Positions 21,301 through 53,329 of a stretch of 60,162 bases of DNA are shown in pieces. The stretch comes from a virus. Its lineage: Duplodnaviria > Caudoviricetes. The stretch lies in the IMG/VR virus record IMGVR_UViG_3300042879_001019, positions 1 to 60,162 of that record. One strand, given 5' to 3'. The notes below the pieces were generated by a model. It was not told where the DNA came from and searched no databases. It was given only the letters and a program-made list of their open reading frames with translations. The translations under genes were made by a program, and so were the position numbers. Each line of letters opens with the position of its first letter. The first letter of the stretch is position 1.

Positions 21301-24300
21301 AAAGCAGCTTTATCTGAAAAACTTTTAAATATTGCCGAAAAACTAGACAATTATGAATTTAGAACAAAGACTGAAACTGTCGCAACTACCAAAGCAGGCA
21401 CAGCTACAAGTGCTAGAAGGACTTCTGAAGCAGTCCAAAAAATCACAGCCGAAAAATACTTCAATGGAGTCAATGCCACAGTCAATGGCCAAGAAGTAAC
21501 CCTTGTTGATAGAAATGGGCGTGTAGAAGCAACTATGCCTAATGGTGATGTTGTTGTCTTGGATACTCCAACAATGCAGATAGCTGAAGATGGATTTGAG
21601 TTTGATGATAACGATGCATTAGTTGCGGTTAATATAACAGATCGATTAGGAAACAAGACAAGAATTACTGGAGATCAGGCTCTTGACTTTGCAATTCGTG
21701 ATAGAGAAAATAAGATTGGAGTTGTTGAGCAAGCTGACTTTGATACAGTATATCAAGAAGTAGAAAGAAGGTATGTCAAAGAAGCTCCTAAGAAAAAAGT
21801 AGAGAAGGAAGCACCTGTAATTACTGAAAAAGCTGAACCAGTAGATGTAGAAGATGAGGTAAAAAAATTAGAGGAGTTATTAAAAAGAGATGATCCTAAC
21901 TTCCAACTTGACTCTGAGATAACTCAAGAAGAAAAGAAGGAAGAACTTGTATCTAAGGCTATAGAAAAGATGTCCGAATCAGATATAAATGATATATCTG
22001 AAGAAGCATTTGATGCTGAGTTTCCTACACCTGATGTAAAGACATATGCTATTGAAGTAAAAGAAAATTCAGAGCTAGCTAATAAGTTAAAACGAATGGG
22101 TTTAAAAGACTTAATTGGTAAGAAGATAAACTTAGTAATGGCTGATCAACTTAAAGTTGGAGAAGTAATGGGCAAGAAAAGAATGGGCGGTCCATTCTTC
22201 CCATTAATTGATAAACTTTTCGGCAAAGTTGCATGGGCTTCTATTAATAAGACAGCTGCAAAAGCAATAGTTAATGGAGCTATAAAGTCTGATTATACGG
22301 TTGTGTATAATATGAATCCATCTGCAATAGATTCAAATGCTGCTATAACAGAAACATTTGAAGATTTAATGCAATCATTACCGAAGAATAAACAAAAAGC
22401 AATATTCACTGCTATTCAAGAACAAGTACTAAAAAATAAGTACGCTAATAAGACAGATCAAGTAAGAGCTATAGCTAAATCATCAAAGACATTAAGTGAG
22501 TTCTTTACTGAGTTAGATAAGTTAGATGTTGATACAATATCGGCTGTAGTTAAGAATATAATGCCATCAAGAGATGTTGATGCAGGTACAAAAATAGGAA
22601 AGCTTTTACAGAACGAAGGAATAACTATAGAGACTATTCGTGAAATGAATGTAGAGCAGTTCGCATCTGAATTACCTGCTGGTGCATTGACAATGGTATT
22701 AGAAGTTACAGATAAAGCAGGCAATAAGGTAACAGCAAAAACAGCTGATGAAGCAATAATTACTCCAGAACAACAAGATGAAGAGGGATTACCTAAACAT
22801 AATAACTATCCAATATATGTAAGAGGAAAGGCTGTCGCTATGCTTAATGAAACTGTCCCTTTTTGGAACATATTAAAAGAGTCTATAAATAATATAAATG
22901 TAAAGGTAGCTGGAATTGTAAGAGAAAAATCTGGAAGAAGATTAACATCAAAAGAAGCAATTTCAAACGAGATGAGAAGTGCTTCAATGACTGCTAGTGT
23001 AGCTAAGAAAGCAATAGAAAAAACAAATACACAGTATAACAGATTCTTATCAACAATCGCTAGATCATTTCCAAATGTAGAGGTAGTGGCATCTCAGGAA
23101 GAGTTTGATGCATTACTAAAAGACTTAAATACTAAGAAGTTATCTACAAAGAATGCTAAAGTATATGGTGCTGTTTATAAAGGCAAATTATATTTGAATC
23201 CATCACTAGAAAACTATAATACACCAGTACATGAGTTTGGTCACGTATGGATAAATACTGCTAAGGTTGCATCTAAACAACTATATAGTAAGGGTATATC
23301 ATTAGTTAAAGGTACTGAGTACGAAAATAACGTAAGAGAAAATAAGGAGTACCAAAGAGTCATAAAACAAATGAAGGCAGATGGTGCTTCAGATGTAGAT
23401 ATAGATAACTACATATATGAAGAGGCATTGGCCACTGCTATTGGAGATAAGGGAGAGTCATTTGTTACAGCGTCACAGAGATTAGACTTTAAGAACTGGA
23501 TGAGAAAACTATTCTCATTTGTTAAGTCCATGACAGGTATATCTAAGTACAGTGCTGAGCAATTAGAAGATATCAATTTAGATGAGTTTGTTCAAGCTGT
23601 GTCTATAGATATAATGTCTGGCACAGAACTATTTAAAGGTGTAAAGACAAATATATCTGATGCTCTTCAGTTAATGACAAATGGAAGTAAGAGTATAGAG
23701 TATATTATGTCTGTAGCCAGAGACAATGGTATATCAGATGCAGGTATAAAGAAATATTTGACGAATCAAGGATTCAGTGAGCAAGCTATAAATGATGCAT
23801 TTAAAGCACAACCTAAAGCTCCGTCAGTTGCTAAGGTATTAGGTAAGCCAAAACCAAAACAGGTAACTGTTAATGAGATGTCAGCACTTAAAGATCAGAT
23901 TAGATTTGAAGCAAAAGCTGCTCGTGATGCTAAGGGTGACTTGAATACTAAAAGAAGAGCTCTTGCTGATGCTATTGGTGGTATGGTTAAGACTGGCAAA
24001 ATTAAAGCTCCTCAGGCTGCTACACTCGTTAACAGAATAAGCAATCTTAACTTAGATAATCCAGTAATGGTTGAGCGATTCGTCAACTATGCTGAGAGAG
24101 TCTTTGAGAGAGCTGAATATCAAGAAACACTAAATAAAGCATTTGAAACAAGAAAGTCCATCCGTAAAGCATTAAAGACTGACAACCAGCCTGAGGTAGT
24201 GGGTATGGCCAAGGAGTTTACAAAGATTGATCCATCAATGGTTGAGGACATAGATGCTTATATTGAAATGGCTGAAAAAGTTAAAAATGCTGTTAAGCCA

Positions 24301-27300
24301 TCTGTTGCAAAAATACCTAATCCTATTCTTAAACAAGCAGCTAATATTGCTGATATTTCTGAATATTCTAAAAAAGAAATCGAACGTCAAGAACAAATTA
24401 AGGCAGATGAATTTTTTGCTGCTTATAATGAAGTTGAAGGCTTGTCAAAAGACATGTCTTTAAAAGAAATGAAAGACATAATAAACTCATTGAAAGAAGA
24501 TCCAGAAGCTGAGCCTAATAAGCAAGAAAAAGTAATGGAGTTCCTGAAAGAAAAAATGTCAGAAATGTCAGATACTTTGAAGTCAATGTTCAAAACAGGC
24601 ATTGATCCAATGACTGGTGAAAAAATTACATTTGATGAAAAACAAAAAGAACTAATCAAGCGAGCATTAAAGATTGACCTTAATGAAATTTCAATCAGAG
24701 AGGCGATTAAGATAGTTGAAAGTATTGATAATTTCTTAACCAATCAGATAACAAGTGGACTTGAGGCAGCTGTTAGTTCTTATGAAGGAGCAATGAATGA
24801 TAAGCAGTTAGTTCAAAAAGGTTTTAAGGCTAAAAGTCTAAAATTCTTGAGAAGCGGAAAAATAGGAAGAGGATACACTGAGCAACTGTTCTCACTTCCA
24901 CTTATGATTGAAAAAATGTTTGGTGGTATAAACAGATCAGTCGAAGTAATGAATAAGTGGGGATTAAGTAAATTAATTAATGGTGTAAATAAAGCCAATA
25001 AGCAATTCAGTACCATTGTTGATTCATATACAAAACAACCATTTTATTCTACAAAAAATTCCCTTGGGGTCTATGTTATGAATAAAGGATTTATGGATGC
25101 TAAAAATGTATATGAAAGAGGTATGCTTGCATTCTTGAAAAGAAATCTGATTGGAACTCAAGCTGAAATGAAAGCAGAATTTGAGAGAAGAACTAGAATG
25201 ATAAAAGAATCAATCGATGTTCTAATTCAAGATGGAAACTCCAAAGAGAAGAAAATGGGTGAATTGTATAAAGAAATATATGACAAACTAAATATTGCAT
25301 CAATGGACATGGATGTAATTAATTCCAATGCATCAAAAAATAATTTAGATGCTATTAATTGGTGGGTAAATCAATGGTCGAAACATTACTCAGATTTATC
25401 TGACATAAGTTTGTCTGTATATAATACTCAGCTTGGAAGTGACTTAAACTATACACCTGATAAGTACAAAAAACTATCTTCAGAAAAAGTAAAATTTGAT
25501 AAAGAAGCAGTAGAGAGGAATGGATCTTTTGCTATATCTATTGATTATACTGACAAAAATAAATCAGGTGTATTAATAGAATCAACTAGACCAGGCGCAT
25601 TGCCAAATGGCAGATATGTAAGTCTTGATTTTGATACTAATAATGCAAAAGCATTAAAGTCTGCACTAACTGATATCAATACTGCTTCAGCTATTAGACA
25701 GATTGATGGATTCATGAGTTCTAATTCATTCAAGCAATTAATTCCTGATTCAGATGATAGAAAAATAATTACTAGAAGAATCAATACGTATATAAGAAGA
25801 GCGAAAGGTAAAAATATTGTGCCATCTGATACAATGCAAGATGTTGAGAGATTTGGAAACTTTATAACTGCTCTTGGTGTAGGTAAGGCATTAGGAGGTG
25901 TAAGTCAAGCTGTAACTCAGACAGTACCAGTTATGCTTAACACTGTTGTAAATGCAGGTCGATTTGATGTTGCTGGCGCTGAATTTAACGCATGGTTAGA
26001 TGATTTAGGCGTGTCTACGTCAAATCGTGGATTAGAATCACAATCAACAGTTGAATCAATTGATAGACAACTAGAAGCGTCAAATGGTAATACACAAAAA
26101 ATAATAAAAGGAGTTGAAAATTTAAGTCAATTTTATTTAAAGCAATTTCTTTCAAGACCAGATATATTTGTCGCTAGATCTTCATTTAAGTCATACTACT
26201 TGCAAAACTTAAAGCGTAGAGGAATAAGTACAGATATTGATTGGAAGACACACAAACCAGACATGGAGGCTGTTGAATATGCAGAAGCAATGGTTAATAG
26301 ACAGCAGAACGTATCTGATCCATTGTTGGCAGGTGAATTTTTAGCTAGCGATGAACCTATGCGAAAAATAAGTAGAAAGGCTGCATTTCCATTTGCTTCA
26401 TTTATTTTAAATCAAAAAGCAAGGATGTACAATGACTTTAGTACATTGGCTAGTGCTACTTCAACAAATGAAGATAAAATAGCAGCAGGTAGATCTTTGG
26501 CAGGTCTTGCAGTTGAATTACTTGCATTTCAATTAATTGGTTTCGGAATAAGAAGATTATATGATTCAATTGCAGCTTCATTACTTGGGGATGACGAAGA
26601 GGAAGAAAAAAATAAGAAAATATTCGGTATTAAAATGACTTCAAGAATGTACAACGCTACTAAATATCCAATTAAAAATATTTTTAATGATATTGTATCG
26701 CCTTTTCCTGGAATGACTGATAAATATGTAACATGGGGCTTGAATGAGGCATTATCTTATTATCCTTGGATGGATAATAAAGAAGTAAAAGATGCTGTAA
26801 AAGAAAGAAATAGAATACTAGAGCTAAAAGGTGAAGATCCAATGGATGCTAAAACTGAAGCTGAATTTATCAAGAATGTGAAAGATGAAGCAACATACCA
26901 ATTATTTGAAGATGAGAATGATAGAAGTGGAGGTATGTACGGGATAGCTTCAGCTACATATAACGAACTATTTGATATTTCAAAATTATCTATAACAGGT
27001 GAATTCATTGATGATTATCAAGGTAGAGAAACCACTAAAAGACTTTTAGAGTCTGATCGCGAAAAAGTAAAATACGCTGTTCCTTTTATGATAGCTTACT
27101 CAACTGGATTATTACCTAAAGATGTAGGAACTATTAGCAATAACTACATAAAAAGAATAAAGAAACAAGCCGTTACTGAAAAACAATACGACAGATACGA
27201 TGCTGTACAGAAAGACCTTGGGCGTAATCTAAAATCTTGGGAAATACAATTGGTGAAAGATAAGAAGGAATCCGAAACAGCCATTTCCGAAATAGAGTTT

Positions 27301-27435
27301 ATCGAACGAAATGGTGGATTGACAGAACGTCAAGGAAGAGAGTACTTAAAAATTATGAAGGCTATAGGTGAGCCAACTGTTTCAGATATAGTGAAAATTA
27401 AGGAAGGTCAGACAGCTGATCAGATTTTAAAATAA
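18361..27435 (+). CDS. Giant internal virion protein (3024 aa) with a zincin-like metallopeptidase motif
   Basis: HEFGH at 23230-23244 with downstream EEALA; hydrophobic Gly/Ala segments; ends the structural operon. Confidence 0.65.
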   Translation: MPNNLPSPNQILGNNSRTPNQQVENNSNLPTPDEVLGKSALKKKEVSQSTQDDGVTSLDGSNKEKKKQSVSSNQQGKYSLPGEYLDYPGKGIRRYYNGKWYDYSFTETKNGKDLSVYDVQITDPVRVNTLNKKFNKVGSTSETEEVFTGFPGQEKNEYRIIEDKWQKKMPGMNKFRIVTNEGSIQSLNKEFNKNVSIPSNLEDLKKKQDQEIQSDKKLNSSLTWVNSGLIGSEEENASKILKQKFPGFEFIKQGPLTDELLVIAPNGARTNISLDNWTDEDDRNQSVVLREFIRNNSDQDLAKTAKELSLKESQERTFLEDKKKQSLEAGILSQDWKFENGKLTIETPLDKAKKSEEFKRIQSETKTARGEYMSEKAEQFDDIYYRFKNNPNKNDEMIAAYASVKADKQEISRVNNYVNDVKNVSNDVAKEKLNIENYANDIISKVQSGEISQQEFDDIYRPEIDQKTNDLNEKYKNLSNDLKNISTVDKSINESVGKNYLIKEATGSVIGGVTSKFIKGFTYLPRLASMGEMSSADQEEIVNLITGGGTTKEYMESEKRNDLTKALFSMSESVGILTSSSLLGGGAAAYPSFYAQSYYEMKDELDKIEGMSEKEKVLLSGSYGVVSSLLEKFGIDSAMQKTAVGKNLTNSIMKSAFSDLPKNASKEFIDAAIMNSFKKYVVKSGVQAAIGAGTEGITEALQNLSGVAIKEVYDQAKGTEYFNNKSAWNILGDAVYEGYLGALGGGIMSTVTSSKDIVARGLRATLNKEQIDALINSAKVDGVNEALITNLKSSILTGKMTKDEAKEISESFNLVKSKLESLPEDMSNEDKSVSLDLLIERDKLQKESSRLDEALRAPYNERITEINNELLKISENAVQKQTTGEVPVQPEATIGGEMEEGKPQAEPQGVTEEGQVAAKEEVDQYIANMGAEARIGSTINPIMDKMSNAEYINDNDIDNAIEKIFNEVDSLDKSDYSAETKAALSEKLLNIAEKLDNYEFRTKTETVATTKAGTATSARRTSEAVQKITAEKYFNGVNATVNGQEVTLVDRNGRVEATMPNGDVVVLDTPTMQIAEDGFEFDDNDALVAVNITDRLGNKTRITGDQALDFAIRDRENKIGVVEQADFDTVYQEVERRYVKEAPKKKVEKEAPVITEKAEPVDVEDEVKKLEELLKRDDPNFQLDSEITQEEKKEELVSKAIEKMSESDINDISEEAFDAEFPTPDVKTYAIEVKENSELANKLKRMGLKDLIGKKINLVMADQLKVGEVMGKKRMGGPFFPLIDKLFGKVAWASINKTAAKAIVNGAIKSDYTVVYNMNPSAIDSNAAITETFEDLMQSLPKNKQKAIFTAIQEQVLKNKYANKTDQVRAIAKSSKTLSEFFTELDKLDVDTISAVVKNIMPSRDVDAGTKIGKLLQNEGITIETIREMNVEQFASELPAGALTMVLEVTDKAGNKVTAKTADEAIITPEQQDEEGLPKHNNYPIYVRGKAVAMLNETVPFWNILKESINNINVKVAGIVREKSGRRLTSKEAISNEMRSASMTASVAKKAIEKTNTQYNRFLSTIARSFPNVEVVASQEEFDALLKDLNTKKLSTKNAKVYGAVYKGKLYLNPSLENYNTPVHEFGHVWINTAKVASKQLYSKGISLVKGTEYENNVRENKEYQRVIKQMKADGASDVDIDNYIYEEALATAIGDKGESFVTASQRLDFKNWMRKLFSFVKSMTGISKYSAEQLEDINLDEFVQAVSIDIMSGTELFKGVKTNISDALQLMTNGSKSIEYIMSVARDNGISDAGIKKYLTNQGFSEQAINDAFKAQPKAPSVAKVLGKPKPKQVTVNEMSALKDQIRFEAKAARDAKGDLNTKRRALADAIGGMVKTGKIKAPQAATLVNRISNLNLDNPVMVERFVNYAERVFERAEYQETLNKAFETRKSIRKALKTDNQPEVVGMAKEFTKIDPSMVEDIDAYIEMAEKVKNAVKPSVAKIPNPILKQAANIADISEYSKKEIERQEQIKADEFFAAYNEVEGLSKDMSLKEMKDIINSLKEDPEAEPNKQEKVMEFLKEKMSEMSDTLKSMFKTGIDPMTGEKITFDEKQKELIKRALKIDLNEISIREAIKIVESIDNFLTNQITSGLEAAVSSYEGAMNDKQLVQKGFKAKSLKFLRSGKIGRGYTEQLFSLPLMIEKMFGGINRSVEVMNKWGLSKLINGVNKANKQFSTIVDSYTKQPFYSTKNSLGVYVMNKGFMDAKNVYERGMLAFLKRNLIGTQAEMKAEFERRTRMIKESIDVLIQDGNSKEKKMGELYKEIYDKLNIASMDMDVINSNASKNNLDAINWWVNQWSKHYSDLSDISLSVYNTQLGSDLNYTPDKYKKLSSEKVKFDKEAVERNGSFAISIDYTDKNKSGVLIESTRPGALPNGRYVSLDFDTNNAKALKSALTDINTASAIRQIDGFMSSNSFKQLIPDSDDRKIITRRINTYIRRAKGKNIVPSDTMQDVERFGNFITALGVGKALGGVSQAVTQTVPVMLNTVVNAGRFDVAGAEFNAWLDDLGVSTSNRGLESQSTVESIDRQLEASNGNTQKIIKGVENLSQFYLKQFLSRPDIFVARSSFKSYYLQNLKRRGISTDIDWKTHKPDMEAVEYAEAMVNRQQNVSDPLLAGEFLASDEPMRKISRKAAFPFASFILNQKARMYNDFSTLASATSTNEDKIAAGRSLAGLAVELLAFQLIGFGIRRLYDSIAASLLGDDEEEEKNKKIFGIKMTSRMYNATKYPIKNIFNDIVSPFPGMTDKYVTWGLNEALSYYPWMDNKEVKDAVKERNRILELKGEDPMDAKTEAEFIKNVKDEATYQLFEDENDRSGGMYGIASATYNELFDISKLSITGEFIDDYQGRETTKRLLESDREKVKYAVPFMIAYSTGLLPKDVGTISNNYIKRIKKQAVTEKQYDRYDAVQKDLGRNLKSWEIQLVKDKKESETAISEIEFIERNGGLTERQGREYLKIMKAIGEPTVSDIVKIKEGQTADQILK
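20987..21127 (+). CDS. Nested +1-frame small basic protein MPFKSKQQVKFLYSQKPQLAEKWRKESPKQNLKALPKKVKSLPKKK (46 aa)
   Basis: Complete ATG..TAG frame inside the giant gene; A-rich upstream sequence; resembles small basic MPFKS-type phage proteins (from memory). Confidence 0.5.
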   Translation: MPFKSKQQVKFLYSQKPQLAEKWRKESPKQNLKALPKKVKSLPKKK

Positions 27436-45646: not shown

Positions 45647-45860
45647 ATCCTTCTAAATTTTCTAATTTTATTCCAATTGGTCTTAATCCAAACGGCTCCG
45701 CGTCCAATCCATAATCCAACGTATATCCAACTTCTTCTAGTTGATTGGTTAATCTTTCTAAATCTAGATAGTCATTCGCACATTCATCCTCATTGAATGA
45801 TTCAAGTATCAATTGTACTTCTATAGGTATTAATTCAGGTGTTTCAAATAGGTCTTTCAT
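45639..45860 (-). CDS. Early-region acidic protein
   Basis: TAGCC-ATG start. Confidence 0.6.
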   Translation of the reverse strand: MKDLFETPELIPIEVQLILESFNEDECANDYLDLERLTNQLEEVGYTLDYGLDAEPFGLRPIGIKLENLEGYE

Positions 45861-45865
45861 GGCTA

Positions 45866-46051
45866 TTAATTATTAATTTGTTCATAAATCTCTTCTACAG
45901 TTTGAAGCACCCAGCTTGTTGTTACCATTGCACCAACACTTTGTATTTTCGTTAGTCCATTTGTGTTTACATGTTCAACACGAATAATTTGTGCTACGCC
46001 AATTAGTATCTCTTCATGGTTACTATTGGTTAATTTGATTACTGTTCTCAT
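45866..46051 (-). CDS. Early-region small protein
   Basis: TAGCC-ATG start. Confidence 0.55.
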   Translation of the reverse strand: MRTVIKLTNSNHEEILIGVAQIIRVEHVNTNGLTKIQSVGAMVTTSWVLQTVEEIYEQINN

Positions 46052-46053
46052 GG

Positions 46054-46278
46054 CTATTTAAATTTAAAAATTGTTAATAGGTTAATCATTCTATAGGCTC
46101 GCTTGTGAACATCGTATACGACCATTAAGTTATGGTCATTTGGATCGAATCGCAATCCGATCCCTTTGATGTTCTTCTTTACGCCCAGTCGGGCTACCAT
46201 TCTTCTTTCAGTGCCGTCCTTCTTGATGAAGCTAACGGAGAAGAATCTTCCGTTAGTGGCTAAAATCTGTTCTTTCAT
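46054..46278 (-). CDS. SH3/Sm-like (WYL-related) small protein
   Basis: FFSVSFIKKDGTERRM..VYDV..AYRMINL. Confidence 0.55.
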   Translation of the reverse strand: MKEQILATNGRFFSVSFIKKDGTERRMVARLGVKKNIKGIGLRFDPNDHNLMVVYDVHKRAYRMINLLTIFKFK

Positions 46279-46813
46279 ATTGATATATTTGTTGGTTATA
46301 AAATAAACTCACATAAGAATCTGTGATATTACTTGGCTCTTCGAATCCTTCATTCTCACAGATGAACTGTAGTATGCTTCCTACTTGATGTTCATTCCAT
46401 TTGTTCATCCAATCTTTTGGATTGTTTGAATGGTAAGATATGAATCCATCACGAGATGTGTACGTATGTTTGATATACTCGCTGAATTTCTCGTAGTTAT
46501 CTTTGAGGTATTGTTTAACTTTTGTTTTGTTAAATGTTATCTCGCAATAGATTGTATCATCGCTGAAGTTGTAGTACTTTGGACTTACCAATCTTTCGAA
46601 TTCAATGTGAGATACAAAGTCTGATAAAAGGTATTGAACTTCGTTACACATCTCTTTTGATATATGATTGTAGTAACTTGCCCAATCAACGAATTCCCAA
46701 AATTCTTTATCTTTTGGTAGGTCGAAGATTTCCTCCTCCCCATCGAAACATGGCTCGCTCCAACGCGAATTGTAGAATCCACTGAATAGTGGTAGATATG
46801 TTTTTGCTTTCAT
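46253..46813 (-). CDS. Early-region hypothetical protein
   Basis: TAGCC-ATG start; FSGFYNS and SPKYYNF motifs. Confidence 0.65.
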   Translation of the reverse strand: MKAKTYLPLFSGFYNSRWSEPCFDGEEEIFDLPKDKEFWEFVDWASYYNHISKEMCNEVQYLLSDFVSHIEFERLVSPKYYNFSDDTIYCEITFNKTKVKQYLKDNYEKFSEYIKHTYTSRDGFISYHSNNPKDWMNKWNEHQVGSILQFICENEGFEEPSNITDSYVSLFYNQQIYQYERTDFSH

Positions 46814-46824
46814 GGCTATTTGTT

Positions 46825-47088
46825 TTACTCAGCGCATAATTCCCATGGCTGAAGATTAATAATTGCTTTTGTTCCTCCTAATTGTTTGACAATAAATCTT
46901 GCTAGCTTTCTATTTACTTTTTCATCCTGTATATGTGCGCTTCCAATTTGTTCTACAATATCTCTTGGTGACATACCTAATACTCTATGACAAAACTTAA
47001 CGTCTTGACCTAGATAGAATGATTTGCTTTTAATAATTAATGTCCAATTGTGATCGAATCCGTAATTCGAAGAGATTATTATATTCAT
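46825..47088 (-). CDS. Early-region hypothetical protein
   Basis: ORF in the operon. Confidence 0.6.
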   Translation of the reverse strand: MNIIISSNYGFDHNWTLIIKSKSFYLGQDVKFCHRVLGMSPRDIVEQIGSAHIQDEKVNRKLARFIVKQLGGTKAIINLQPWELCAE

Positions 47089-47090
47089 AA

Positions 47091-47798
47091 TTAATGATTT
47101 AAAATGTAAATTGATTTGTTTGATTTTGTCCCTAGTGTACCACTACATAAACCACATTTGCTACATGTAGATTTGAATCCTGCTTCCTTGCTTGCAGGAC
47201 AATTGACAATTCCATCTAGCTTTGATTCTGTAGCAATGTAACTTCTATATCCTTTCATCCTTGCGATAATCTCTCCGTTGATGTCATGTGTAGATGCCAT
47301 GAAGAATTTACTCAAATCGTTACGCATCCATTGATGTGTATATCCAGTCCAATTATCCGCGACATTTGTCATCTCTTCAATCATCTTAATTGGATGTAAT
47401 GATGGCTCACCATACGTTCCGAATCGAACGAATGTTCCTTGTGCCATCTCTCTTGCCTGAAGAATCATATCATACTTAAATGTTGGTACATTTTCAAATG
47501 TTCCGAATTCCTTTGCAATACTTTTTAGCATGCTGATAAACCCAACATACTGATTGAATTTATGCGTATAACATTTTCCGAATTCATTGAATGGACAATC
47601 TAAACAATTTGTATCAGCATTACTGAAGAAAGTCTTCATGCCATCATTCGTTACGTTCACAATCAATTCGTATTGCTTTCTGCTAAATGTGTACGTTTGG
47701 ACAATTTTTCTTTTCTTGTCTGATTCAATCTTATTGTTGCTAGTGGTTGACTTGCTTATTACTTGCAATGTGTCTCCGATTCTGAATACTAATTTCAT
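47091..47798 (-). CDS. Cys-rich protein (GP88/radical-SAM-like metal-binding family)
   Basis: CLDCP....CY, VRFGTYGEP, TGYTHQW, CPA..CSKCGLC. Confidence 0.55.
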   Translation of the reverse strand: MKLVFRIGDTLQVISKSTTSNNKIESDKKRKIVQTYTFSRKQYELIVNVTNDGMKTFFSNADTNCLDCPFNEFGKCYTHKFNQYVGFISMLKSIAKEFGTFENVPTFKYDMILQAREMAQGTFVRFGTYGEPSLHPIKMIEEMTNVADNWTGYTHQWMRNDLSKFFMASTHDINGEIIARMKGYRSYIATESKLDGIVNCPASKEAGFKSTCSKCGLCSGTLGTKSNKSIYILNH

Positions 47799-47811
47799 GA
47801 CTAATTGTTTT

Positions 47812-47867
47812 GGTTAATATGCCGTATCACTACGGCATTTCGTCTATTTAAGACTCATCAGTTAACC
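47812..47867 (-). ncRNA. Hammerhead ribozyme, type I (AUA cleavage triplet)
   Basis: GGUUAA-CUGAUGA-GUCU(UAAAU)AGAC-GAAA-UGCCGUA(GUGA)UACGGCA-UA-UUAACC; complete core and three stems. Confidence 0.92.
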
Positions 47868-48100
47868 TGTTTTAAAAGTTTTTCGTATTTCTTTGGCAAT
47901 TTGTTATACATTCTTATTGTATGTCCACTACTCCAATGATTCAAGAATACTTCCTGTATTATGGTTGATTTTAATCCGTTACCTATACAAATTGTCGTTC
48001 CGTAGCCTAAACATCCCTCAATGACTTCTATTATTTCGCCATCTTTTTTAATGTAGTTATCAATTACATCTTGAACTACTTTGTTTGTGTATATTTTCAT
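47858..48100 (-). CDS. Early-region hypothetical protein
   Basis: Its TGA stop is part of the ribozyme CUGAUGA. Confidence 0.6.
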   Translation of the reverse strand: MKIYTNKVVQDVIDNYIKKDGEIIEVIEGCLGYGTTICIGNGLKSTIIQEVFLNHWSSGHTIRMYNKLPKKYEKLLKQVN

Positions 48101-48105
48101 GATTT

Positions 48106-48363
48106 CTAGTTATTAATTAATTCTTTAATCTCACCACTACCAATTCTGTAAATAAACAAATCAACTATCTCTGTTTCTTCATTCTCTTCAGTTCTATCTA
48201 ACAATATGAAGTTTTGTTCGTCATCTTCAAAGATGAATCTTCCTTCCGTTTGTCCATCACTATCTACATTCCAAACGTTATTTCCTCCCCAATTAGCTGA
48301 ACTATATTGTGTTACTCTTCGATATCTCTTATCTAAGAATCTTCTTACGTTTTGTGCTTTCAT
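48106..48363 (-). CDS. Early-region hypothetical protein (likely start MKAQNVRR)
   Basis: ATG 5 nt after the stop of an upstream micro-ORF. Confidence 0.55.
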   Translation of the reverse strand: MKAQNVRRFLDKRYRRVTQYSSANWGGNNVWNVDSDGQTEGRFIFEDDEQNFILLDRTEENEETEIVDLFIYRIGSGEIKELINN

Positions 48364-48368
48364 GATTC

Positions 48369-48440
48369 CTATTTTTTTGATAAATACTTTAATGTAATTA
48401 CTACTGAATACAGTAATAATAAATAAACAAATGTTCCCAT
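48369..48440 (-). CDS. 23-aa hydrophobic micropeptide MGTFVYLLLLYSVVITLKYLSKK
   Basis: TAGTC-ATG junction; single TM plus basic tail. Confidence 0.4.
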   Translation of the reverse strand: MGTFVYLLLLYSVVITLKYLSKK

Positions 48441-48442
48441 GA

Positions 48443-48616
48443 CTAAATGTATTTGTAAATATTCTTTTCAATATCTGCGATTACTTGGTCTTCAGTATAG
48501 AATGAGTAAATATCCTCAACTATTACATCAAACGTATCATTCTTGAATGTATCGTCTCTATGTGTATACTCAATATATCCACTACCTAAATCTGTTTCAA
48601 ATGCTATTCTTTTCAT
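48443..48616 (-). CDS. Small acidic protein (57 aa)
   Basis: TAGCC-ATG start; stop TAG lies in the next junction. Confidence 0.5.
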   Translation of the reverse strand: MKRIAFETDLGSGYIEYTHRDDTFKNDTFDVIVEDIYSFYTEDQVIADIEKNIYKYI

Positions 48617-48618
48617 GG

Positions 48619-48765
48619 CTAATAATATATTTCGTTTAACGTATAATTATATTTCTTACAGACATAATTAATGAAGTTATTCATGTGATTTATGTCGTTA
48701 AATTCTCTGTTGATTACAACTATATCTCTGTGATATGGCTTGTAAAATTCTATTATTGCTTTCAT
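48619..48765 (-). CDS. Small protein (48 aa)
   Basis: ATGA overlap with the upstream ORF. Confidence 0.5.
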   Translation of the reverse strand: MKAIIEFYKPYHRDIVVINREFNDINHMNNFINYVCKKYNYTLNEIYY

Positions 48766-49016
48766 GATAATTTGTATTTTCTTTTTAAAAATTGTATTTG
48801 ATTGTATTCCTTTTCTGAATAACTTACAGGATGTAATTCAACTTCGTTTATGTTGAAGTCTATTAATCTATTTTCATGTTTAATTGTTACTCTAGTTGTA
48901 ACTATTTCATGAGCGCAAAATTTTTGATTAATAAAACCATATGCTTTGTTAGTTATTCTTACAGACATATCGAATCCATCGAAAAAGTCTAAAATTATTT
49001 GATTTCTAGATTTCAT
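48762..49016 (-). CDS. Early-region hypothetical protein
   Basis: TAGTC-ATG start. Confidence 0.55.
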   Translation of the reverse strand: MKSRNQIILDFFDGFDMSVRITNKAYGFINQKFCAHEIVTTRVTIKHENRLIDFNINEVELHPVSYSEKEYNQIQFLKRKYKLS

Positions 49017-49018
49017 GA

Positions 49019-49129
49019 CTATCTATTGTTAAATGGTATTAATACTTTTCTTGTTTTAATTAACGTTCCGTTTAAAAAGAATCCCCAAATTTCGAAACGT
49101 CCATCAATCTTTAAAATTTTTGTTGACAT
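49019..49129 (-). CDS. Small protein (36 aa, MSTKILKIDGRFEIWGFFLNG...)
   Basis: TAGCC-ATG start 22 nt after the predicted ribozyme cleavage site. Confidence 0.5.
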   Translation of the reverse strand: MSTKILKIDGRFEIWGFFLNGTLIKTRKVLIPFNNR

Positions 49130-49145
49130 GGCTAAAAATTTAATT

Positions 49146-49200
49146 GGTTAAGACGTGACTAAACGTCACGTTTCGTCTATTTAAGACTCTTCAGTTAACC
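49146..49200 (-). ncRNA. Hammerhead ribozyme, type I (GUC cleavage triplet)
   Basis: GGUUAA-CUGAAGA-GUCU(UAAAU)AGAC-GAAA-CGUGAC(GUUUA)GUCACG-UC-UUAACC. Confidence 0.93.
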
Positions 49201-49377
49201 TTTTTTAATCGAGAATAAAATGCTTGATAACATCGCAATTGCGCCACATCCGTAGAATAGTGTAGCAATCAAATACTCATGTTGAATCATCAAGCTTTCA
49301 TTGTTAAAACTAACAATTGGTGTAGCGATTGCCGTACTACCGAATGCAATCATCATTACTAAAAACATTGTTTTCAT
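49195..49377 (-). CDS. Small two-TM membrane protein, first early ORF
   Basis: TAGCC-ATG start; TAA stop inside ribozyme stem I. Confidence 0.55.
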   Translation of the reverse strand: MKTMFLVMMIAFGSTAIATPIVSFNNESLMIQHEYLIATLFYGCGAIAMLSSILFSIKKG

Positions 49378-49395
49378 GGCTATTGGTTTATTTGG

Positions 49396-49700
49396 TTAGT
49401 GCTTGCCGTTCGTATCGCTCGAATAAAATTGTCATTCAATCGGCAAGCTATTTTATTTCCATAACATTTCGGGTAGTTCAATTCCCTAGGTAGTTCGATA
49501 CTAAGAACTATTATCGTATCTGTTATTATAGTTTAACTTGCACCACGCTTATATAGATGGAATCGAACCACCACAAGTTATTAAAGTATTGTTATTCCCT
49601 CCCATGCTTGCAAAAGGGTAGTTTAATGATTATTTCTAATCTTTCATCTTTGGTGTTACCTCAGATAAAGCATGTTACAAGATGTCAAAGAACTAAATTT
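49396..49700 (-). ncRNA. Structured early leader with tRNA-like elements
   Basis: GCTTGCCG/CGGCAAGC with TTCG(AGCGATA)CGAA then ACTA; T-arm GGTGG-TTCGATT-CCATC; GATTA-GAAA-TAATC hairpin. Confidence 0.5.
49683..49694 (-). promoter_or_regulatory. boxA-like antitermination element AGTTCTTTGACA
   Basis: Resembles rrn boxA (E. coli TGCTCTTTAACA); lies near the 5' end of the early leader. Confidence 0.55.
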
Positions 49701-49853
49701 GCAAACTATTTAAACTAATCTACTTTAAACCACTATCTGAATTGTTTATCCTCGAAAGGCAATCTATTTAGTTTTATTGTTTCAATCTACTTCAGCAATC
49801 TAATCTCATCAATCGTACATCTGAAATATTGTTTTTAGCTCGTTTGCTTATTG

Positions 49854-49883
49854 TAAAGGTAGGCACATAATCGGGATTGTCAA
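49854..49883 (-). promoter_or_regulatory. Candidate strong early promoter
   Basis: TTGACA-N16-TACCTTTA with an A-tract upstream. Confidence 0.45.
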
Positions 49884-49899
49884 CAATTTTTTATTGAAA

Positions 49900-50460
49900 G
49901 ATTAGCAAAATACGTATTTACACTTAGAAACGTCTACGTAGTTTCACTTAGCTAAGACGGATGCCGTGACTGATTAAGTTAGCTAAATGCTTGTAAATCA
50001 ATGCTTTACGATAATTAAATATATTTTGCATGAAATACGTTTTTAAATTGCGAAATGAATTGAGGCTTAACCCACTCAATCCAAACGCGTGAAGATGTAT
50101 GCATATTTGGATGCATAACGTATTGATTGTCAGTCACGTAGGTAGGTCGATTGGTCGATTGGTCCGTTGGTCTATTTAACATAATGGATATTATATTACA
50201 GATTGGTTTGTTGGTAGGCTGTATGTATTGGTATCAATAAAGGTATGTAGGTCAACAGATAGATGTCAACAGACGGCAAGCATATAGGCACATCGGTTAA
50301 TGTCATAGGCACATAGGCACATTGCTAGGCAAAAAGCTGAAAATCCCCAACCAATTTGCCGAAATGAATACCCCCCAGTCAATTTTCAAACCGTTTCCCC
50401 CGAGCGGACTTTTTCGCGGAATGGGGGTATTACCCAAAAATTCCGCATATCTAACAAAAA
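49900..50460. other. Divergent non-coding region with short repeats, candidate genome end or packaging region
   Basis: GGTCGATT-like x3-4; TAGGCA(C) x4; inverted repeat AATACCCCC/GGGGGTATT; IHF-like sites. Confidence 0.4.
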
Positions 50461-50476
50461 ATAATTATATTTGCGT

Positions 50477-50614
50477 ATGAATATAATCGTTGAGAATTTA
50501 CTTAGGGTTGGTCTATTGGTAGGTTTCGAGTACTATGGTCCTGACGAGGAGTTTGACTTCAATGAGCTGCAGATCAGTTTATTAATTTTAAGATTGACAT
50601 TTATATGGCACTGA
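50477..50614 (+). CDS. Small hypothetical protein (45 aa)
   Basis: ATG 3 nt after TATATTTG. Confidence 0.55.
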   Translation: MNIIVENLLRVGLLVGFEYYGPDEEFDFNELQISLLILRLTFIWH

Positions 50615-51772: not shown

Positions 51773-53329
51773 ATGATAGTAAAACAGGTACATTTTGGCG
51801 ATGAAGGCCAAAAAAAGCTCAAGAAGGGCATCAAAACGATAGCAGGAGCTGTCAAAAGTACGTTAGGGGCGCGAGGTCGCACTGTACTAATTGAATCAGA
51901 GAACCATATTGGTGGTATGACGGTAACGAAGGATGGTGTTACTGTCGCTAAGTCGATCAACTTGTATGATCCGACTGAGAATTTGGCTGTTATGATGATG
52001 CGTCAGGCGGCAGAGCGAACGGCAACTGTTGCTGGTGATGGAACGACAACAAGCATTGTGTTAGCTGAGGCTATTATTGATGCATCTGACAAGTACTTGT
52101 CGGAGACAGACAACGTAACTGAGGTGATACGTGAGATCAATCAGATAGCTGGGCAAGTTGTTGCGCAACTTGACAAGAAGTCCAAGAAGTTATCAGGTAA
52201 GAAGTTGGTTGACGTGGCAACTATTAGTGCTAACAATGACAGGGAGGTAGGCAAGATGATTGCTGATGCTTTTGGGGAGGTTGACATGGTGACAGTTGAG
52301 AACAGCCAGACGACAAGTACGTATGTTGAGATAATTAAAGGTATGAAGATTGATAGGGGCTATGCCTCTAGAGTGTTCATCAATGACTTCAAGAAGCAGG
52401 AGTGTGTGTTAGACAATCCGTACATTTTGATCAGTGATCATGAGATAAATAATATTATGAATTTGGAGCGTATACTAGTACCAATTGTTGCTCAAGGTAA
52501 ATCGTTGCTTATTATTGGTGAGTTAGGTCAGAACGCATTGAATACTTTGAATGCTAACGTTGCGGCACAGAAGCTTAAGGCATGTGCTATTATGCCACCG
52601 TCGTTTGGCTACCGTAAGAAAGACTTGCTAGAGGACTTGGCAGTCGCTTTGGGAGGTGTGTATTTCTCTGAGGACACTGGTGATGATTTGTCGTTGATAG
52701 ACTTAGACAGTTTGGGTAGAGCTTCAAAGGTTATTGTTAGCAACAACATGACGGTATTCATGCATAGTGAGTCGAGAGAAGAGCATATCAACCAAAGGGT
52801 AGATGAGCTAAAAGACATGCGTGATACAGCGACAAAGGATGAGGACAAGAGCTTCTTGAACGAGCGTATTGCCAACTTGTCTGGTGGCGTTGGTGTCATC
52901 TATGTAGGGGCATTGAGTGACATTGAGCAGAAGGAGAAGAAGGATAGGATTGACGATGCTGTGTGTGCTGTTCAGGCTGCTTTGGAGGATGGTATATTGC
53001 CTGGTGGTGGTGTGGCGTTGTTGGATGCGAGCATATCTACTGATTATTCAAGTACTGCTGCTGCTATAATGATTGATGCGCTAGAAGCACCATTTAGACA
53101 GATTGTCACAAATGCTGGTAAGAATTGTGACGAGATATTATTTAACAGACCTGATGGATGTGGCTATGACGTGAAGGGCGAGCAGTATGGTGACATGGTT
53201 AAGTTGGGAATTATTGATCCGACAAAAGTTACTAAGAACGCTTTATTGAACGCTGTGTCTGTTGCAACGACAATCATGAGTACGAATGCTATTATCACAA
53301 ACGTAAGAGACTATGAAGGTTCTAAATAA
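51773..53329 (+). CDS. groEL: Chaperonin GroEL (phage-encoded)
   Basis: VTKDGVTVAK, GDGTTT, ERIANLSGGV, EKKDRIDDA, GILPGGG, GIIDPTKV. Confidence 0.97.
   Translation: MIVKQVHFGDEGQKKLKKGIKTIAGAVKSTLGARGRTVLIESENHIGGMTVTKDGVTVAKSINLYDPTENLAVMMMRQAAERTATVAGDGTTTSIVLAEAIIDASDKYLSETDNVTEVIREINQIAGQVVAQLDKKSKKLSGKKLVDVATISANNDREVGKMIADAFGEVDMVTVENSQTTSTYVEIIKGMKIDRGYASRVFINDFKKQECVLDNPYILISDHEINNIMNLERILVPIVAQGKSLLIIGELGQNALNTLNANVAAQKLKACAIMPPSFGYRKKDLLEDLAVALGGVYFSEDTGDDLSLIDLDSLGRASKVIVSNNMTVFMHSESREEHINQRVDELKDMRDTATKDEDKSFLNERIANLSGGVGVIYVGALSDIEQKEKKDRIDDAVCAVQAALEDGILPGGGVALLDASISTDYSSTAAAIMIDALEAPFRQIVTNAGKNCDEILFNRPDGCGYDVKGEQYGDMVKLGIIDPTKVTKNALLNAVSVATTIMSTNAIITNVRDYEGSK

What the first reader, a model, noticed from the sequence alone, without database searches (positions are those of the whole stretch)
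47812..49200. Two hammerhead ribozymes punctuate the early operon at stop-to-start junctions
Seen: two complete type I hammerheads on the coding (minus) strand, at 47812-47867 and 49146-49200. Stem I (GGUUAA/UUAACC) and stem II (GUCU-UAAAU-AGAC) are identical, while stem III differs in sequence yet is fully paired in both, which argues for selection on structure. Each overlaps the upstream stop codon (the TGA is part of CUGAUGA; the TAA lies in stem I). Predicted cleavage falls 19 and 22 nt before the next ATG. Established: hammerheads self-cleave after NUH, leaving 5'-OH and 2',3'-cyclic phosphate ends, and they have been reported in phage and bacterial intergenic regions. Inference: the phage cuts its early polycistron into units with defined short leaders without host RNases, and ribosomes terminating upstream may gate ribozyme folding. 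The ~1.3-kb RNA between the two sites would have ends compatible with RtcB-type circularisation.
Basis: partly seen in the sequence, partly recalled or inferred. Interest (0 to 1): 0.85.

Follow-up and report, generated by a model that had tools for sequence, protein, structure and literature searches.

The report
Two hammerhead ribozymes in phage operon
Two textbook self-cleaving hammerhead RNAs sit between small early genes of a 60-kb phage that probably infects Flavobacteria; they belong to a large, very uniform group of phage hammerheads that standard RNA annotation misses, but the kind of element and its proposed role were already described.

Summary
Minus-strand 49200..49146 and 47867..47812 are complete type I hammerheads. 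Both have the full catalytic core, G10.1-C11.1, GAAA, an A15.1-U16.1 pair, and cleavage after C49152 and A47818. A covariance model built only from other viral contigs scores them 55.0 and 54.1 bits; the next best site in the window scores 12.4. Rfam's thresholds miss both.

They belong to a large phage class. In the subclass sharing their stem I (GGUUAA), 112 of 116 copies have an ORF start 10-45 nt (median 22) after the cut. Leaders are A-rich and mostly lack a Shine-Dalgarno motif. A syntenic relative keeps a hammerhead before the homologous 35/36-aa ORF. Cultured Flavobacterium and Cellulophaga phages carry one each.

The likeliest role is self-cleavage of the early polycistronic RNA. This would leave a hairpin-capped upstream mRNA and a short 5'-OH leader downstream, a role proposed for prophage hammerheads in 2011 (PMC3088659). 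Ribosome gating and circularisation are untested. The stop-codon overlap is largely forced, because the motif carries stops in all three frames. Verdict: real, a new member of a known kind, moderate interest.

The parts
49146..49200 (-). Hammerhead A, type I. Stem I 5' strand 49200-49195; core CUGAAGA 49194-49188; stem II GUCU 49187-49184, loop UAAAU 49183-49179, AGAC 49178-49175; GAAA 49174-49171; stem III 49170-49165 / loop 49164-49160 / 49159-49154; U16.1 49153; C17 49152. Predicted cut between 49152 and 49151. Stem I 3' strand 49151-49146.
   Evidence: Sequence; MFE fold; R1 68.5 bits; independent model R2 55.0 bits; Rfam RF00163 26.3 bits and RF03152 28.8 bits, both below gathering.
47812..47867 (-). 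Hammerhead B, type I. Stem I 5' strand 47867-47862; core CUGAUGA 47861-47855; stem II 47854-47851 / loop 47850-47846 / 47845-47842; GAAA 47841-47838; stem III 47837-47831 / loop 47830-47827 / 47826-47820; U16.1 47819; A17 47818. Predicted cut between 47818 and 47817. Stem I 3' strand 47817-47812.
   Evidence: Sequence; MFE fold; R1 72.7 bits; R2 54.1 bits; Rfam RF03152 30.1 bits and RF00163 14.4 bits, both below gathering.
49195..49377 (-). 60-aa ORF upstream of hammerhead A. Its TAA stop (49197-49195) lies in stem I. No family match.
49019..49129 (-). 36-aa ORF whose ATG lies 22 nt after the predicted cut of A. It has a homologue that also follows a hammerhead in the syntenic relative L035.
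   Evidence: (51.6% identity over 31 aa).
47858..48100 (-). 80-aa ORF upstream of hammerhead B. Its TGA stop (47860-47858) is U4-G5-A6 of the core.
47091..47798 (-). 235-aa ORF (phrog_2554, function unknown) whose ATG lies 19 nt after the predicted cut of B.
47818..49151 (-). The 1334-nt RNA segment that double cleavage would release. It holds about seven small ORFs without family matches. Their junctions are -4 to 5 nt, against 65 and 59 nt at the two hammerhead junctions.
   Evidence: The 23-aa ORF at 48440..48369 is my own reading.
49380..50604 (.). About 1.2 kb of mostly non-coding DNA between the divergent gene blocks. It is the presumed control region from which the minus-strand operon is transcribed. 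This is inferred; no promoter was identified.
   Evidence: Promoter scans were not enriched.

Best explanation
Both elements are genuine type I hammerhead ribozymes. They are transcribed as part of the long minus-strand operon that starts near 50.2-50.5 kb and runs through small orphan genes into the replication genes. Each most likely folds as it is transcribed and cuts itself, after C49152 and after A47818. Because stem I is the open helix, almost the whole ribozyme stays on the upstream product. That mRNA then ends in the stable stem III hairpin with a 2',3'-cyclic phosphate. The downstream product begins with 5'-OH-UUAACCA... and carries only a 19-22-nt, A-rich leader without a Shine-Dalgarno motif before its AUG. 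The 6-bp stem I should fall apart after the cut and free that leader. The operon would thus be divided into three units: 5' part, 1334-nt middle, 3' part. Their stability and translation would be uncoupled. What is shown: the motif, its uniqueness in the genome, covariation across the class, the uniform junction layout, positional conservation in a relative, and presence in cultured Flavobacteriia phages. What is inferred: transcription of this strand, cleavage in vivo, and every consequence for stability or translation.
For: All invariant core positions and the three helices are present, and the MFE fold is the hammerhead. Independent model R2 gives 55.0 and 54.1 bits against 12.4 for the next site. 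Covariation on 104 distinct class members: 97.9% of cells are paired against 60.9% in shuffles, and 13 of 15 pairs show double changes (that alignment is fitted to the model). In five Elemovirus species, 7 of 171 aligned columns vary. Four of those lie in stem II and are compensatory in 4 of 5 genomes (GACU/AGUC versus GGUU/AACC), and one is the free core position N7. Junction layout: 50 of 91 members meet both criteria, against 57 of 1820 random positions. In the GGUUAA subclass, 112 of 116 have an ATG-ORF 10-45 nt after the cut (median 22) and 16 of 113 have a Shine-Dalgarno-like motif, against 54 of 96 for other stem I sequences. The base just 5' of stem I and the base just 3' of it are each A in 114 of 116, and both window copies have this. 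The syntenic relative L035 (GroEL 71.8% identical over 468 aa by tblastx) has three GGUUAA hammerheads, one of them before the homologue of the 36-aa ORF. In five other viral records the 3-6 hammerheads of each lie on one strand within 0.8-4.9 kb. Genes on the minus strand are packed at -4 to 11 nt except at the two hammerheads. Published precedent: several hammerheads flanking genes in prophages cleave in vitro, and a halovirus hammerhead lies 13 nt before an early start codon with a mapped 5' end nearby (PMC3088659, passages).
Against: There is no RNA evidence of any kind for this phage, and no promoter was identified. Rfam's curated hammerhead models do not reach their thresholds. Copy B cleaves after AUA, which I recall (from no call) to be a slower triplet than GUC. 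The tertiary stem I/loop II contact needed for fast cleavage at cellular Mg2+ is only suggested, by the conserved A/A cap and the UNNAU loop. Ribosomes ending translation at stops inside the ribozyme would unfold it, so cleavage efficiency in vivo is uncertain. The closest sequenced relative, MW202828 (terminase 73% identical), has no such hammerhead, and only 3 of 8 related phage records tested have one. The element is therefore dispensable. The tight distance to the AUG could reflect genome compaction plus the need for about 20 nt of unpaired leader, rather than any role of the new 5' end.
Confidence: 0.72

Rival explanations
1. The ribozymes are active but essentially selfish or neutral passengers. 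A compact hammerhead module spreads among phage gene junctions by recombination and is tolerated because it fits into an intergenic gap. It gives the phage no benefit.
For: Presence is patchy: 0 in the closest relative and 1 each in 3 of 8 related records. Copy number per genome varies from 0 to at least 6. The flanking genes are unrelated: 157 flanking ORFs formed only 15 small clusters, and most of those are one gene seen from both sides. The same 30-nt 5' half occurs in otherwise unrelated contigs L003, L004 and L007. Perreault et al. note that ribozymes are common in selfish elements.
Against: The element is conserved in all 68 Elemovirus records, with compensatory changes. Its position is conserved between the window and L035. 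Spacing to the next AUG is very narrow and strand and region are always the same. No transposase or other mobility gene was noticed beside the copies, though I did not test this systematically.
Confidence: 0.15
2. The 1334-nt RNA between the two cuts, or the two outer pieces, is re-ligated to give a circular or a spliced RNA. The ligase would be either a host RtcB-type enzyme or the hammerhead itself. The second route is possible because both copies share the same stem I, so the 5' end made by A can re-pair with ribozyme B.
For: Hammerhead products carry the end chemistry such ligation needs (established chemistry, recalled). Stem I is identical in the two copies although stem III is unrelated. 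Co-resident copies share stem I more often than expected: 12 of 55 within-locus pairs against 153 of 7085 between loci, and 21 of 28 co-resident copies are GGUUAA against a base rate of 17 of 120.
Against: The phage has no RtcB, and the host is unknown. Stem III starts are also enriched within loci (11 of 55 against 283 of 7085), so shared ancestry explains part of the signal. Several multi-copy phages have similar but not identical stem I sequences, such as L055 and L011, which would weaken cross-pairing. Perreault et al. looked for circular and spliced products and found none. Hammerhead equilibria favour cleavage (recalled). The segment encodes ordinary small ORFs.
Confidence: 0.06
3. The elements act only as RNA structures, for example as stabilising hairpins, RNase targets or translation barriers, and do not cleave themselves.
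For: Stem III is a stable hairpin. One terminator-like hit overlaps it, but on the opposite strand. Cleavage has not been demonstrated here.
Against: A structure-only role does not explain strict conservation of every unpaired catalytic nucleotide (CUGANGA, GAAA, UH) across hundreds of copies while the helices covary freely.
Confidence: 0.05

Closest known systems
Multiple hammerheads flanking genes in prophages and phages (Perreault et al. 2011, PMC3088659; passages read)
   Same: Several hammerheads lie on one strand and flank single genes or short gene blocks of unrelated function. The proposed role is the same: processing long phage transcripts into gene-length mRNAs. Circles and splicing were considered there too.
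   Different: The tested examples there came from Clostridium, Azorhizobium and Agrobacterium prophages. The paper says type II occurs in bacteria as frequently as types I and III. Here both copies are type I, in a lytic-looking podophage related to Flavobacteriia phages, with a uniform 18-26-nt leader lacking a Shine-Dalgarno motif. I could not see that paper's supplementary alignments, so members of this subclass may already be listed there.
Rfam RF00163, Hammerhead ribozyme type I
   Same: Same topology and core. Stem II and its loop are close to the model consensus (GUCCCAAAUAGGAC in the model, GUCUUAAAUAGAC here).
   Different: Scores are 26.3 and 14.4 bits against a gathering score of 34. 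The model expects a very short stem III, whereas these have 6-8 bp plus a loop. Ten loci holding about 32 members of the class gave no Rfam hit at gathering.
Rfam RF03152, RAGATH-1 hammerhead
   Same: It gives the best bit scores (30.1 and 28.8), has a long stem III, and has an A-rich stretch just 5' of stem I.
   Different: The scores are far below the gathering score of 56.3. The model's 5' hairpin is absent or reduced to a few weak A-U pairs with flagged mismatches.
HHphage of haloviruses HF1/HF2 (described in PMC3088659)
   Same: A hammerhead lies a few nucleotides (13) before the start codon of an early gene in a polycistronic transcript of a tailed virus. A mapped 5' end lies within three nucleotides of the cleavage site.
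   Different: That one is a variant hammerhead in an archaeal virus and sits before the first ORF of the transcript. Here the core is canonical and both copies sit between ORFs. Relative L035 does have one before its first ORF.
Type I hammerheads in 5' UTRs of chryso- and fusariviruses (bioRxiv 10.1101/2024.05.16.594327, abstract read; journal version PMC13725137 seen only in a listing)
   Same: A type I hammerhead lies just upstream of an ORF. There, self-cleavage is reported to be essential for translation initiation in fungi.
   Different: Those are eukaryotic RNA viruses using cap-independent initiation. Nothing comparable has been shown in bacteria.
Synthetic ribozyme insulators such as RiboJ (recalled from memory, no call)
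   Same: A hammerhead placed before a coding sequence cuts off the upstream RNA, so the leader is constant whatever lies upstream.
   Different: RiboJ is an engineered part, not a natural element.

Membership tests
Hammerhead ribozyme (structural definition) | Core strand C3-U4-G5-A6-N7-G8-A9 between stems I and II | tested here: met
   CUGAAGA at 49194-49188 and CUGAUGA at 47861-47855.
Hammerhead ribozyme (structural definition) | G12-A13-A14, an A15.1-U16.1 pair, and H17 (not G) at the cleavage site | tested here: met
   GAAA at 49174-49171 and 47841-47838; U-C at 49153-49152 and U-A at 47819-47818.
Hammerhead ribozyme (structural definition) | Three helices around the core, with a G10.1-C11.1 pair closing stem II | tested here: met
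   Stem I 6 bp, stem II 4 bp (GUCU/AGAC), stem III 6 bp (A) or 7 bp (B) plus the A15.1-U16.1 pair. The MFE structure equals this fold.
Hammerhead ribozyme (structural definition) | Helices supported by covariation in related sequences | tested here: met
   97.9% paired against 60.9% shuffled and 32-38% for slid partners; 13 of 15 pairs show double changes (alignment fitted to the model). Compensatory stem II changes among Elemovirus species in a MAFFT alignment.
Hammerhead ribozyme (structural definition) | Tertiary contact between stem I and loop II that gives fast cleavage at physiological Mg2+ | tested here: inconclusive
   Stem I is exactly 6 bp and is capped by A at -1 and A at +1 (114 of 116 each in the subclass). 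Loop II is mostly 5 nt of form UNNAU. This is suggestive, but no structure or pseudoknot was established.
Hammerhead ribozyme (structural definition) | Mg2+-dependent self-cleavage giving 5'-OH and 2',3'-cyclic phosphate ends | not testable with these tools
   Needs a transcription and cleavage assay. No RNA runs were listed.
Type I topology | Stem I open; stems II and III closed by loops | tested here: met
Rfam RF00163 Hammerhead_1 | Score at or above the curated gathering score of 34 bits | tested here: not met
   26.3 bits (A) and 14.4 bits (B); no hit at gathering.
Rfam RF03152 RAGATH-1-hammerhead | Score at or above the gathering score of 56.3 bits, including the 5' accessory hairpin | tested here: not met
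   30.1 and 28.8 bits. The hairpin region aligns poorly, with non-standard pairs flagged.

The most novel reading that the evidence does not exclude
In phages of hosts that do not use Shine-Dalgarno pairing (Flavobacteriia and the like), GGUUAA-type hammerheads are translation devices for internal cistrons. Self-cleavage would strip a 55-nt structure from the edge of the initiation region and create a 5'-OH end a fixed distance (about 22 nt) from the AUG, and this new end or freed leader is what lets ribosomes load. The upstream stop codon placed in or against the ribozyme would make cleavage depend on upstream translation. The stem I shared by all copies in a genome would additionally let fragments re-pair with another copy. 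That would give phage hammerheads a concrete function, the bacterial counterpart of the ribozyme-dependent initiation reported for fungal RNA viruses.
Probability: 0.2. Interest if true: 0.7.

Novelty: new member of a known kind. Interest (0 to 1): 0.4.

Why it matters
What bacterial and phage hammerheads are for is still open. A 2019 review says more work is needed to define their purpose (PMC6765202, passages). This window adds no new kind of element. Following it up did expose three useful points. First, there is a large, very uniform subclass: the same stem I, an A/A cap, and an 18-26-nt A-rich leader without a Shine-Dalgarno motif. Second, Rfam's thresholds miss this class completely. In Elemovirus records the site is instead annotated as an opposite-strand hypothetical protein. 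Third, members occur in cultured phage-host pairs: Cellulophaga phage phi18:3, Elemovirus on Flavobacterium sp. BAL314, and Pelagibacter phage HTVC019P. The processing, translation and circularisation ideas could be tested directly in those systems.

Tried and rejected
**Rfam.** Rfam at gathering thresholds gave no hit, on the whole window and on ten other loci.

**Loose core pattern.** CTGANGA..GAAA gave 12 matches against 4.8 expected, and one shuffle also reached 12. It is too weak to use alone.

**RNA runs.** No RNA holder was listed for window 47000-50200.

**RtcB.** None is encoded in the phage record. This says nothing about the host.

**Promoters and tRNAs.**
- A Bacteroidetes-type promoter pattern, recalled from memory, gave 4 matches against 3.4 expected and none in the early control region.
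- The sigma-70 scan was not enriched (26 against 32.3), and neither was the terminator scan (4 against 2.7).
- A T-loop-like GGTTCGATTCC near 49570 led nowhere: ARAGORN found no tRNA and Rfam in E-value mode gave nothing.

**Gene families.** PHROGs and Pfam gave nothing for the ten small ORFs around the ribozymes except phrog_2267 for 46278..46054. Clustering the ORFs that flank hammerheads showed no shared gene family, so I dropped the idea of a conserved ribozyme-gene cassette. The one exception is the 36-aa ORF shared with L035.

**TTAACCAW.** It is enriched in the window (18 against 7.8), but the extra minus-strand copies lie inside ORFs rather than at junctions, so I did not pursue it.

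**Relatives without the element.** Megablast of 46500-50500 against phages found no match. The closest relative MW202828 has no hit below E 0.22 with filters off. Maribacter phage Panino, Cellulophaga phages phi38:1 and Calle_1, and Tenacibaculum phage Gundel_1 gave none through the looser genome search route.

**Literature.**
- PMC5737381 does not mention RAGATH. My account of where that name comes from is recalled.
- surfaced no paper linking hammerheads to Flavobacteriia or Cellulophaga phages or to translation without Shine-Dalgarno pairing.
- In one search, none of the 10 papers listed (of 61) contains 'hammerhead'.
- That is no proof of absence. Supplementary files, including the alignments of PMC3088659, were not available.

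Full report
**1. What is in the sequence**

Read on the minus strand, 49200..49146 is GGUUAA-CUGAAGA-GUCU-UAAAU-AGAC-GAAA-CGUGAC-GUUUA-GUCACG-U-C-UUAACC. The stretch 47867..47812 is GGUUAA-CUGAUGA-GUCU-UAAAU-AGAC-GAAA-UGCCGUA-GUGA-UACGGCA-U-A-UUAACC.

Each has every invariant hammerhead position:
- C3-U4-G5-A6-N7-G8-A9;
- the G10.1-C11.1 pair;
- G12-A13-A14;
- the A15.1-U16.1 pair;
- a non-G at position 17.

Stem I is open and stems II and III are capped by loops, which is the type I topology. The predicted cuts fall after 49152 and after 47818. The new 5' ends are 49151 and 47817, which lie 22 and 19 nt before the ATGs at 49129 and 47798. ORF 49377..49195 stops at the TAA in stem I. ORF 48100..47858 stops at U4-G5-A6 of the core. 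ViennaRNA returns the hammerhead as the minimum-energy fold for each element, both alone and inside 111 nt of context.

**2. More than chance**

- Rfam reports nothing at its gathering thresholds.
- In E-value mode on 1.8 kb, the best matches are RAGATH-1-hammerhead (30.1 and 28.8 bits; threshold 56.3) and Hammerhead_1 (26.3 and 14.4 bits; threshold 34).
- The conserved 24-nt core plus stem II occurs exactly in 13 IMG/VR contigs. In every one, stems I and III differ in sequence but pair.
- Model R1, built from ten such sequences including the window's two, finds only these two sites in the window with filters off: 72.7 and 68.5 bits, next 10.1.
- For an independent test I built R2 from 77 hammerheads found in 78 other contigs. 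I left out the window, its syntenic relatives L035 and L058, and the first 13 loci. R2 scores the two sites 55.0 and 54.1 bits, with the next site at 12.4.
- A descriptor I wrote found 263 hammerheads in 190 of 265 held loci, and none in the same sequences reversed.

**3. The genome**

The window is a whole IMG/VR virus record, estimated 99% complete. Its terminase is 73% identical to that of an uncultured podovirus, MW202828. It is 34-44% identical to terminases of Flavobacterium (Elemovirus), Maribacter, Cellulophaga and Tenacibaculum phages. A Flavobacteriia host is therefore the best guess, and it is an inference.

Genes run on the plus strand up to about 27.4 kb. They run on the minus strand from about 50.2 kb down to 27.6 kb. 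The minus block starts with small orphan ORFs and continues into endonuclease, primase and helicase genes, so 'early operon' is reasonable but inferred. Between 49377 and 46813 the junctions are -4 to 11 nt. The two hammerhead junctions, at 65 and 59 nt, are the only exceptions.

**4. The family and its layout**

*Covariation.* R1 found 111 matches in 91 sources. On the 104 distinct rows, 97.9% of cells pair, against 60.9% in shuffles and 32-38% when partners are slid. Thirteen of 15 pairs show changes on both sides. That alignment is fitted to the model, which favours the structure.

*Junction layout.* I kept 91 unique members with enough flanking sequence.
- 65 have an ATG-ORF of at least 30 codons starting 10-45 nt after the cut.
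- 61 have the stop of a frame at least 40 codons long within -10..+9 of the ribozyme start.
- 50 have both.
- The matching figures for 1820 random same-strand positions are 387, 184 and 57.

*Flanks.* The base just 5' of the 6-bp stem I is A in 85% of members, and the base just 3' is A in 70% (n=101).

In this subclass, 116 unique copies had enough flank.
- 112 have an ORF start 10-45 nt after the cut, mostly at 18-26 nt, with a median of 22.
- The A/A cap is present in 114 of 116 on each side.
- A Shine-Dalgarno-like motif occurs in 16 of 113. For hammerheads with another stem I the figure is 54 of 96.
- Nearest upstream stops cluster at +3 (29), -2 (19), +7 (17) and -4 (11).

The positions +3, +7 and +17 are the first stops in the three frames of this very motif. 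Overlap is therefore what any ORF running into it must produce. I do not count the overlap as evidence for selected gating. It does mean that terminating ribosomes would sit on the ribozyme.

**5. Relatives**

*Syntenic relative.* L035 comes from a 61.5-kb record estimated 100% complete. It is collinear with the window around GroEL (71.8% over 468 aa by tblastx). It has three hammerheads within 810 nt, and all three have stem I GGUUAA.
- One lies before the first small ORF.
- One lies before a 35-aa ORF homologous to the window's 36-aa ORF (51.6% over 31 aa). Hammerhead A is therefore conserved in position.
- Stems II and III differ between copies, with compensation.

*Patchy presence.* MW202828 has none. 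Of eight related phage records tested, three have one each: elemoE, phi18:3 and phi19:3.

*Elemovirus.* The site is present in all 68 records that matched. It lies between gp64 and gp66 of NC_055854, where it is annotated as an opposite-strand hypothetical protein, gp65. Across five species, 7 of 171 columns vary. Four of these are compensatory stem II changes and one is N7. ElemoF carries a mismatched hybrid stem II.

*Baltivirus.* Phi18:3 and phi19:3 share stems I and II but have unrelated, fully paired stems III. In phi18:3 the element lies between gp050 and gp049.

*Other phages.* Pelagibacter phages HTVC019P and Jormungand carry a class member with a different stem I. The wider class is therefore not restricted to Bacteroidota phages.

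*Clustering.* In five further viral records, the 3-6 hammerheads of each lie on one strand within 0.8-4.9 kb.

**6. How it most likely works**

The type I arrangement leaves the ribozyme on the upstream product. That product then ends in the stem III hairpin with a cyclic phosphate. The downstream product starts with 5'-OH-UUAACCA and has a short, A-rich, unpaired leader.

In Flavobacterium johnsoniae, initiation does not use Shine-Dalgarno pairing. It is tuned by secondary structure around -20..+20 and by upstream adenines at -3, -6, -12 and -13 (PMC6847099, passages). In the uncut, folded RNA the stem I 3' strand occupies -22..-17 (A) or -19..-14 (B). Cleavage followed by loss of the weak stem I would free the edge of the initiation region.

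All of this is inference. It is also the same idea Perreault et al. proposed in 2011 for prophage hammerheads, and a 2019 review still treats it as unproven.

**7. Rivals**

*Passenger.* Patchy presence and unrelated flanking genes keep a passenger reading alive. Conservation in 68 Elemovirus genomes, conserved position in L035 and the narrow spacing argue against it.

*Re-ligation.* The shared stem I is a real oddity.
- Co-resident copies share it in 12 of 55 pairs, against 153 of 7085 pairs between loci.
- 21 of 28 co-resident copies are GGUUAA, against a base rate of 17 of 120.

This would allow a fragment's 5' end to re-pair with the next ribozyme. Several points speak against it:
- Stem III starts are also enriched within loci (11 of 55 against 283 of 7085).
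- Some multi-copy phages have only similar stem I sequences.
- The phage encodes no RtcB.
- Circles were sought and not found in 2011.

*Structure only.* This reading does not explain the invariant unpaired core.

**8. Novelty and score**

The element is canonical, and its context and proposed function are in print. I therefore file it as a new member of a known kind. Three things are worth keeping:
- the size and uniformity of the GGUUAA subclass in phages whose leaders mostly lack a Shine-Dalgarno motif;
- its invisibility to Rfam thresholds;
- the cultured systems in which the open question of phage hammerhead function could be tested.

Interest 0.4.

Noticed in passing
window 49380-50604: About 1.2 kb of mostly non-coding DNA lies between the divergent gene blocks. 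It carries short direct repeats, such as TAGGCACAT in 4 copies and GGGTAGTTCAAT in 3, and several inverted repeats. It may be a control region or origin. ARAGORN and Rfam find nothing there.
   Followed up: partly
window 45858-49382, minus strand: The octamer TAGYCATG occurs 13 times in the window against 4.3 expected (0 of 100 shuffles reach 13). Nine copies are at starts of minus-strand early ORFs. Two of those follow the hammerheads, where no ORF ends at that TAG. It looks like a phage-specific start-site motif.
   Followed up: partly
L148 1990-2097 (NC_055854 16289-16396); also L149, L151, L152: Elemovirus records annotate a 35-aa hypothetical protein (gp65 in NC_055854) on the strand opposite the hammerhead. 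It is probably a spurious gene call over the ribozyme.
   Followed up: partly
L149 (MT497071, elemoF_6-3D): Stem II of the elemoF hammerhead is a hybrid (GACU paired with AACC). The two inner pairs are broken, whereas the four other species compared have fully paired stems. It may be a recombinant or a weakened copy.
   Followed up: no
L035 about 1310-1270 and 1100-1080, minus strand: Two junctions without a hammerhead in the syntenic relative carry the same leader (TTAACCA...CTTAGAAATTATG) that follows its hammerheads. Either a repeated start-site module exists independently of the ribozyme, or the ribozymes were lost cleanly.
   Followed up: no
L265 2497-2557 (NC_020483 2948-3008); L266 1497-1557: Pelagibacter phages HTVC019P and Jormungand carry a type I hammerhead of the same class (41.2 and 43.3 bits with R1) in the early region, upstream of a regulator and integrase. 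It is unannotated in HTVC019P and lies partly under gp49 in Jormungand.
   Followed up: partly
window 51773-53329 (+) and 18361-27435 (+): The phage encodes a GroEL-like chaperonin (phrog_5725, E 3.6e-130) and a 3024-aa ORF of unexamined function.
   Followed up: no
L210 (5 copies in 1.7 kb), L219, L211, L055: Some viral contigs carry 4-7 hammerheads in tandem, each in front of a tiny ORF. These are far denser arrays than in the window.
   Followed up: partly
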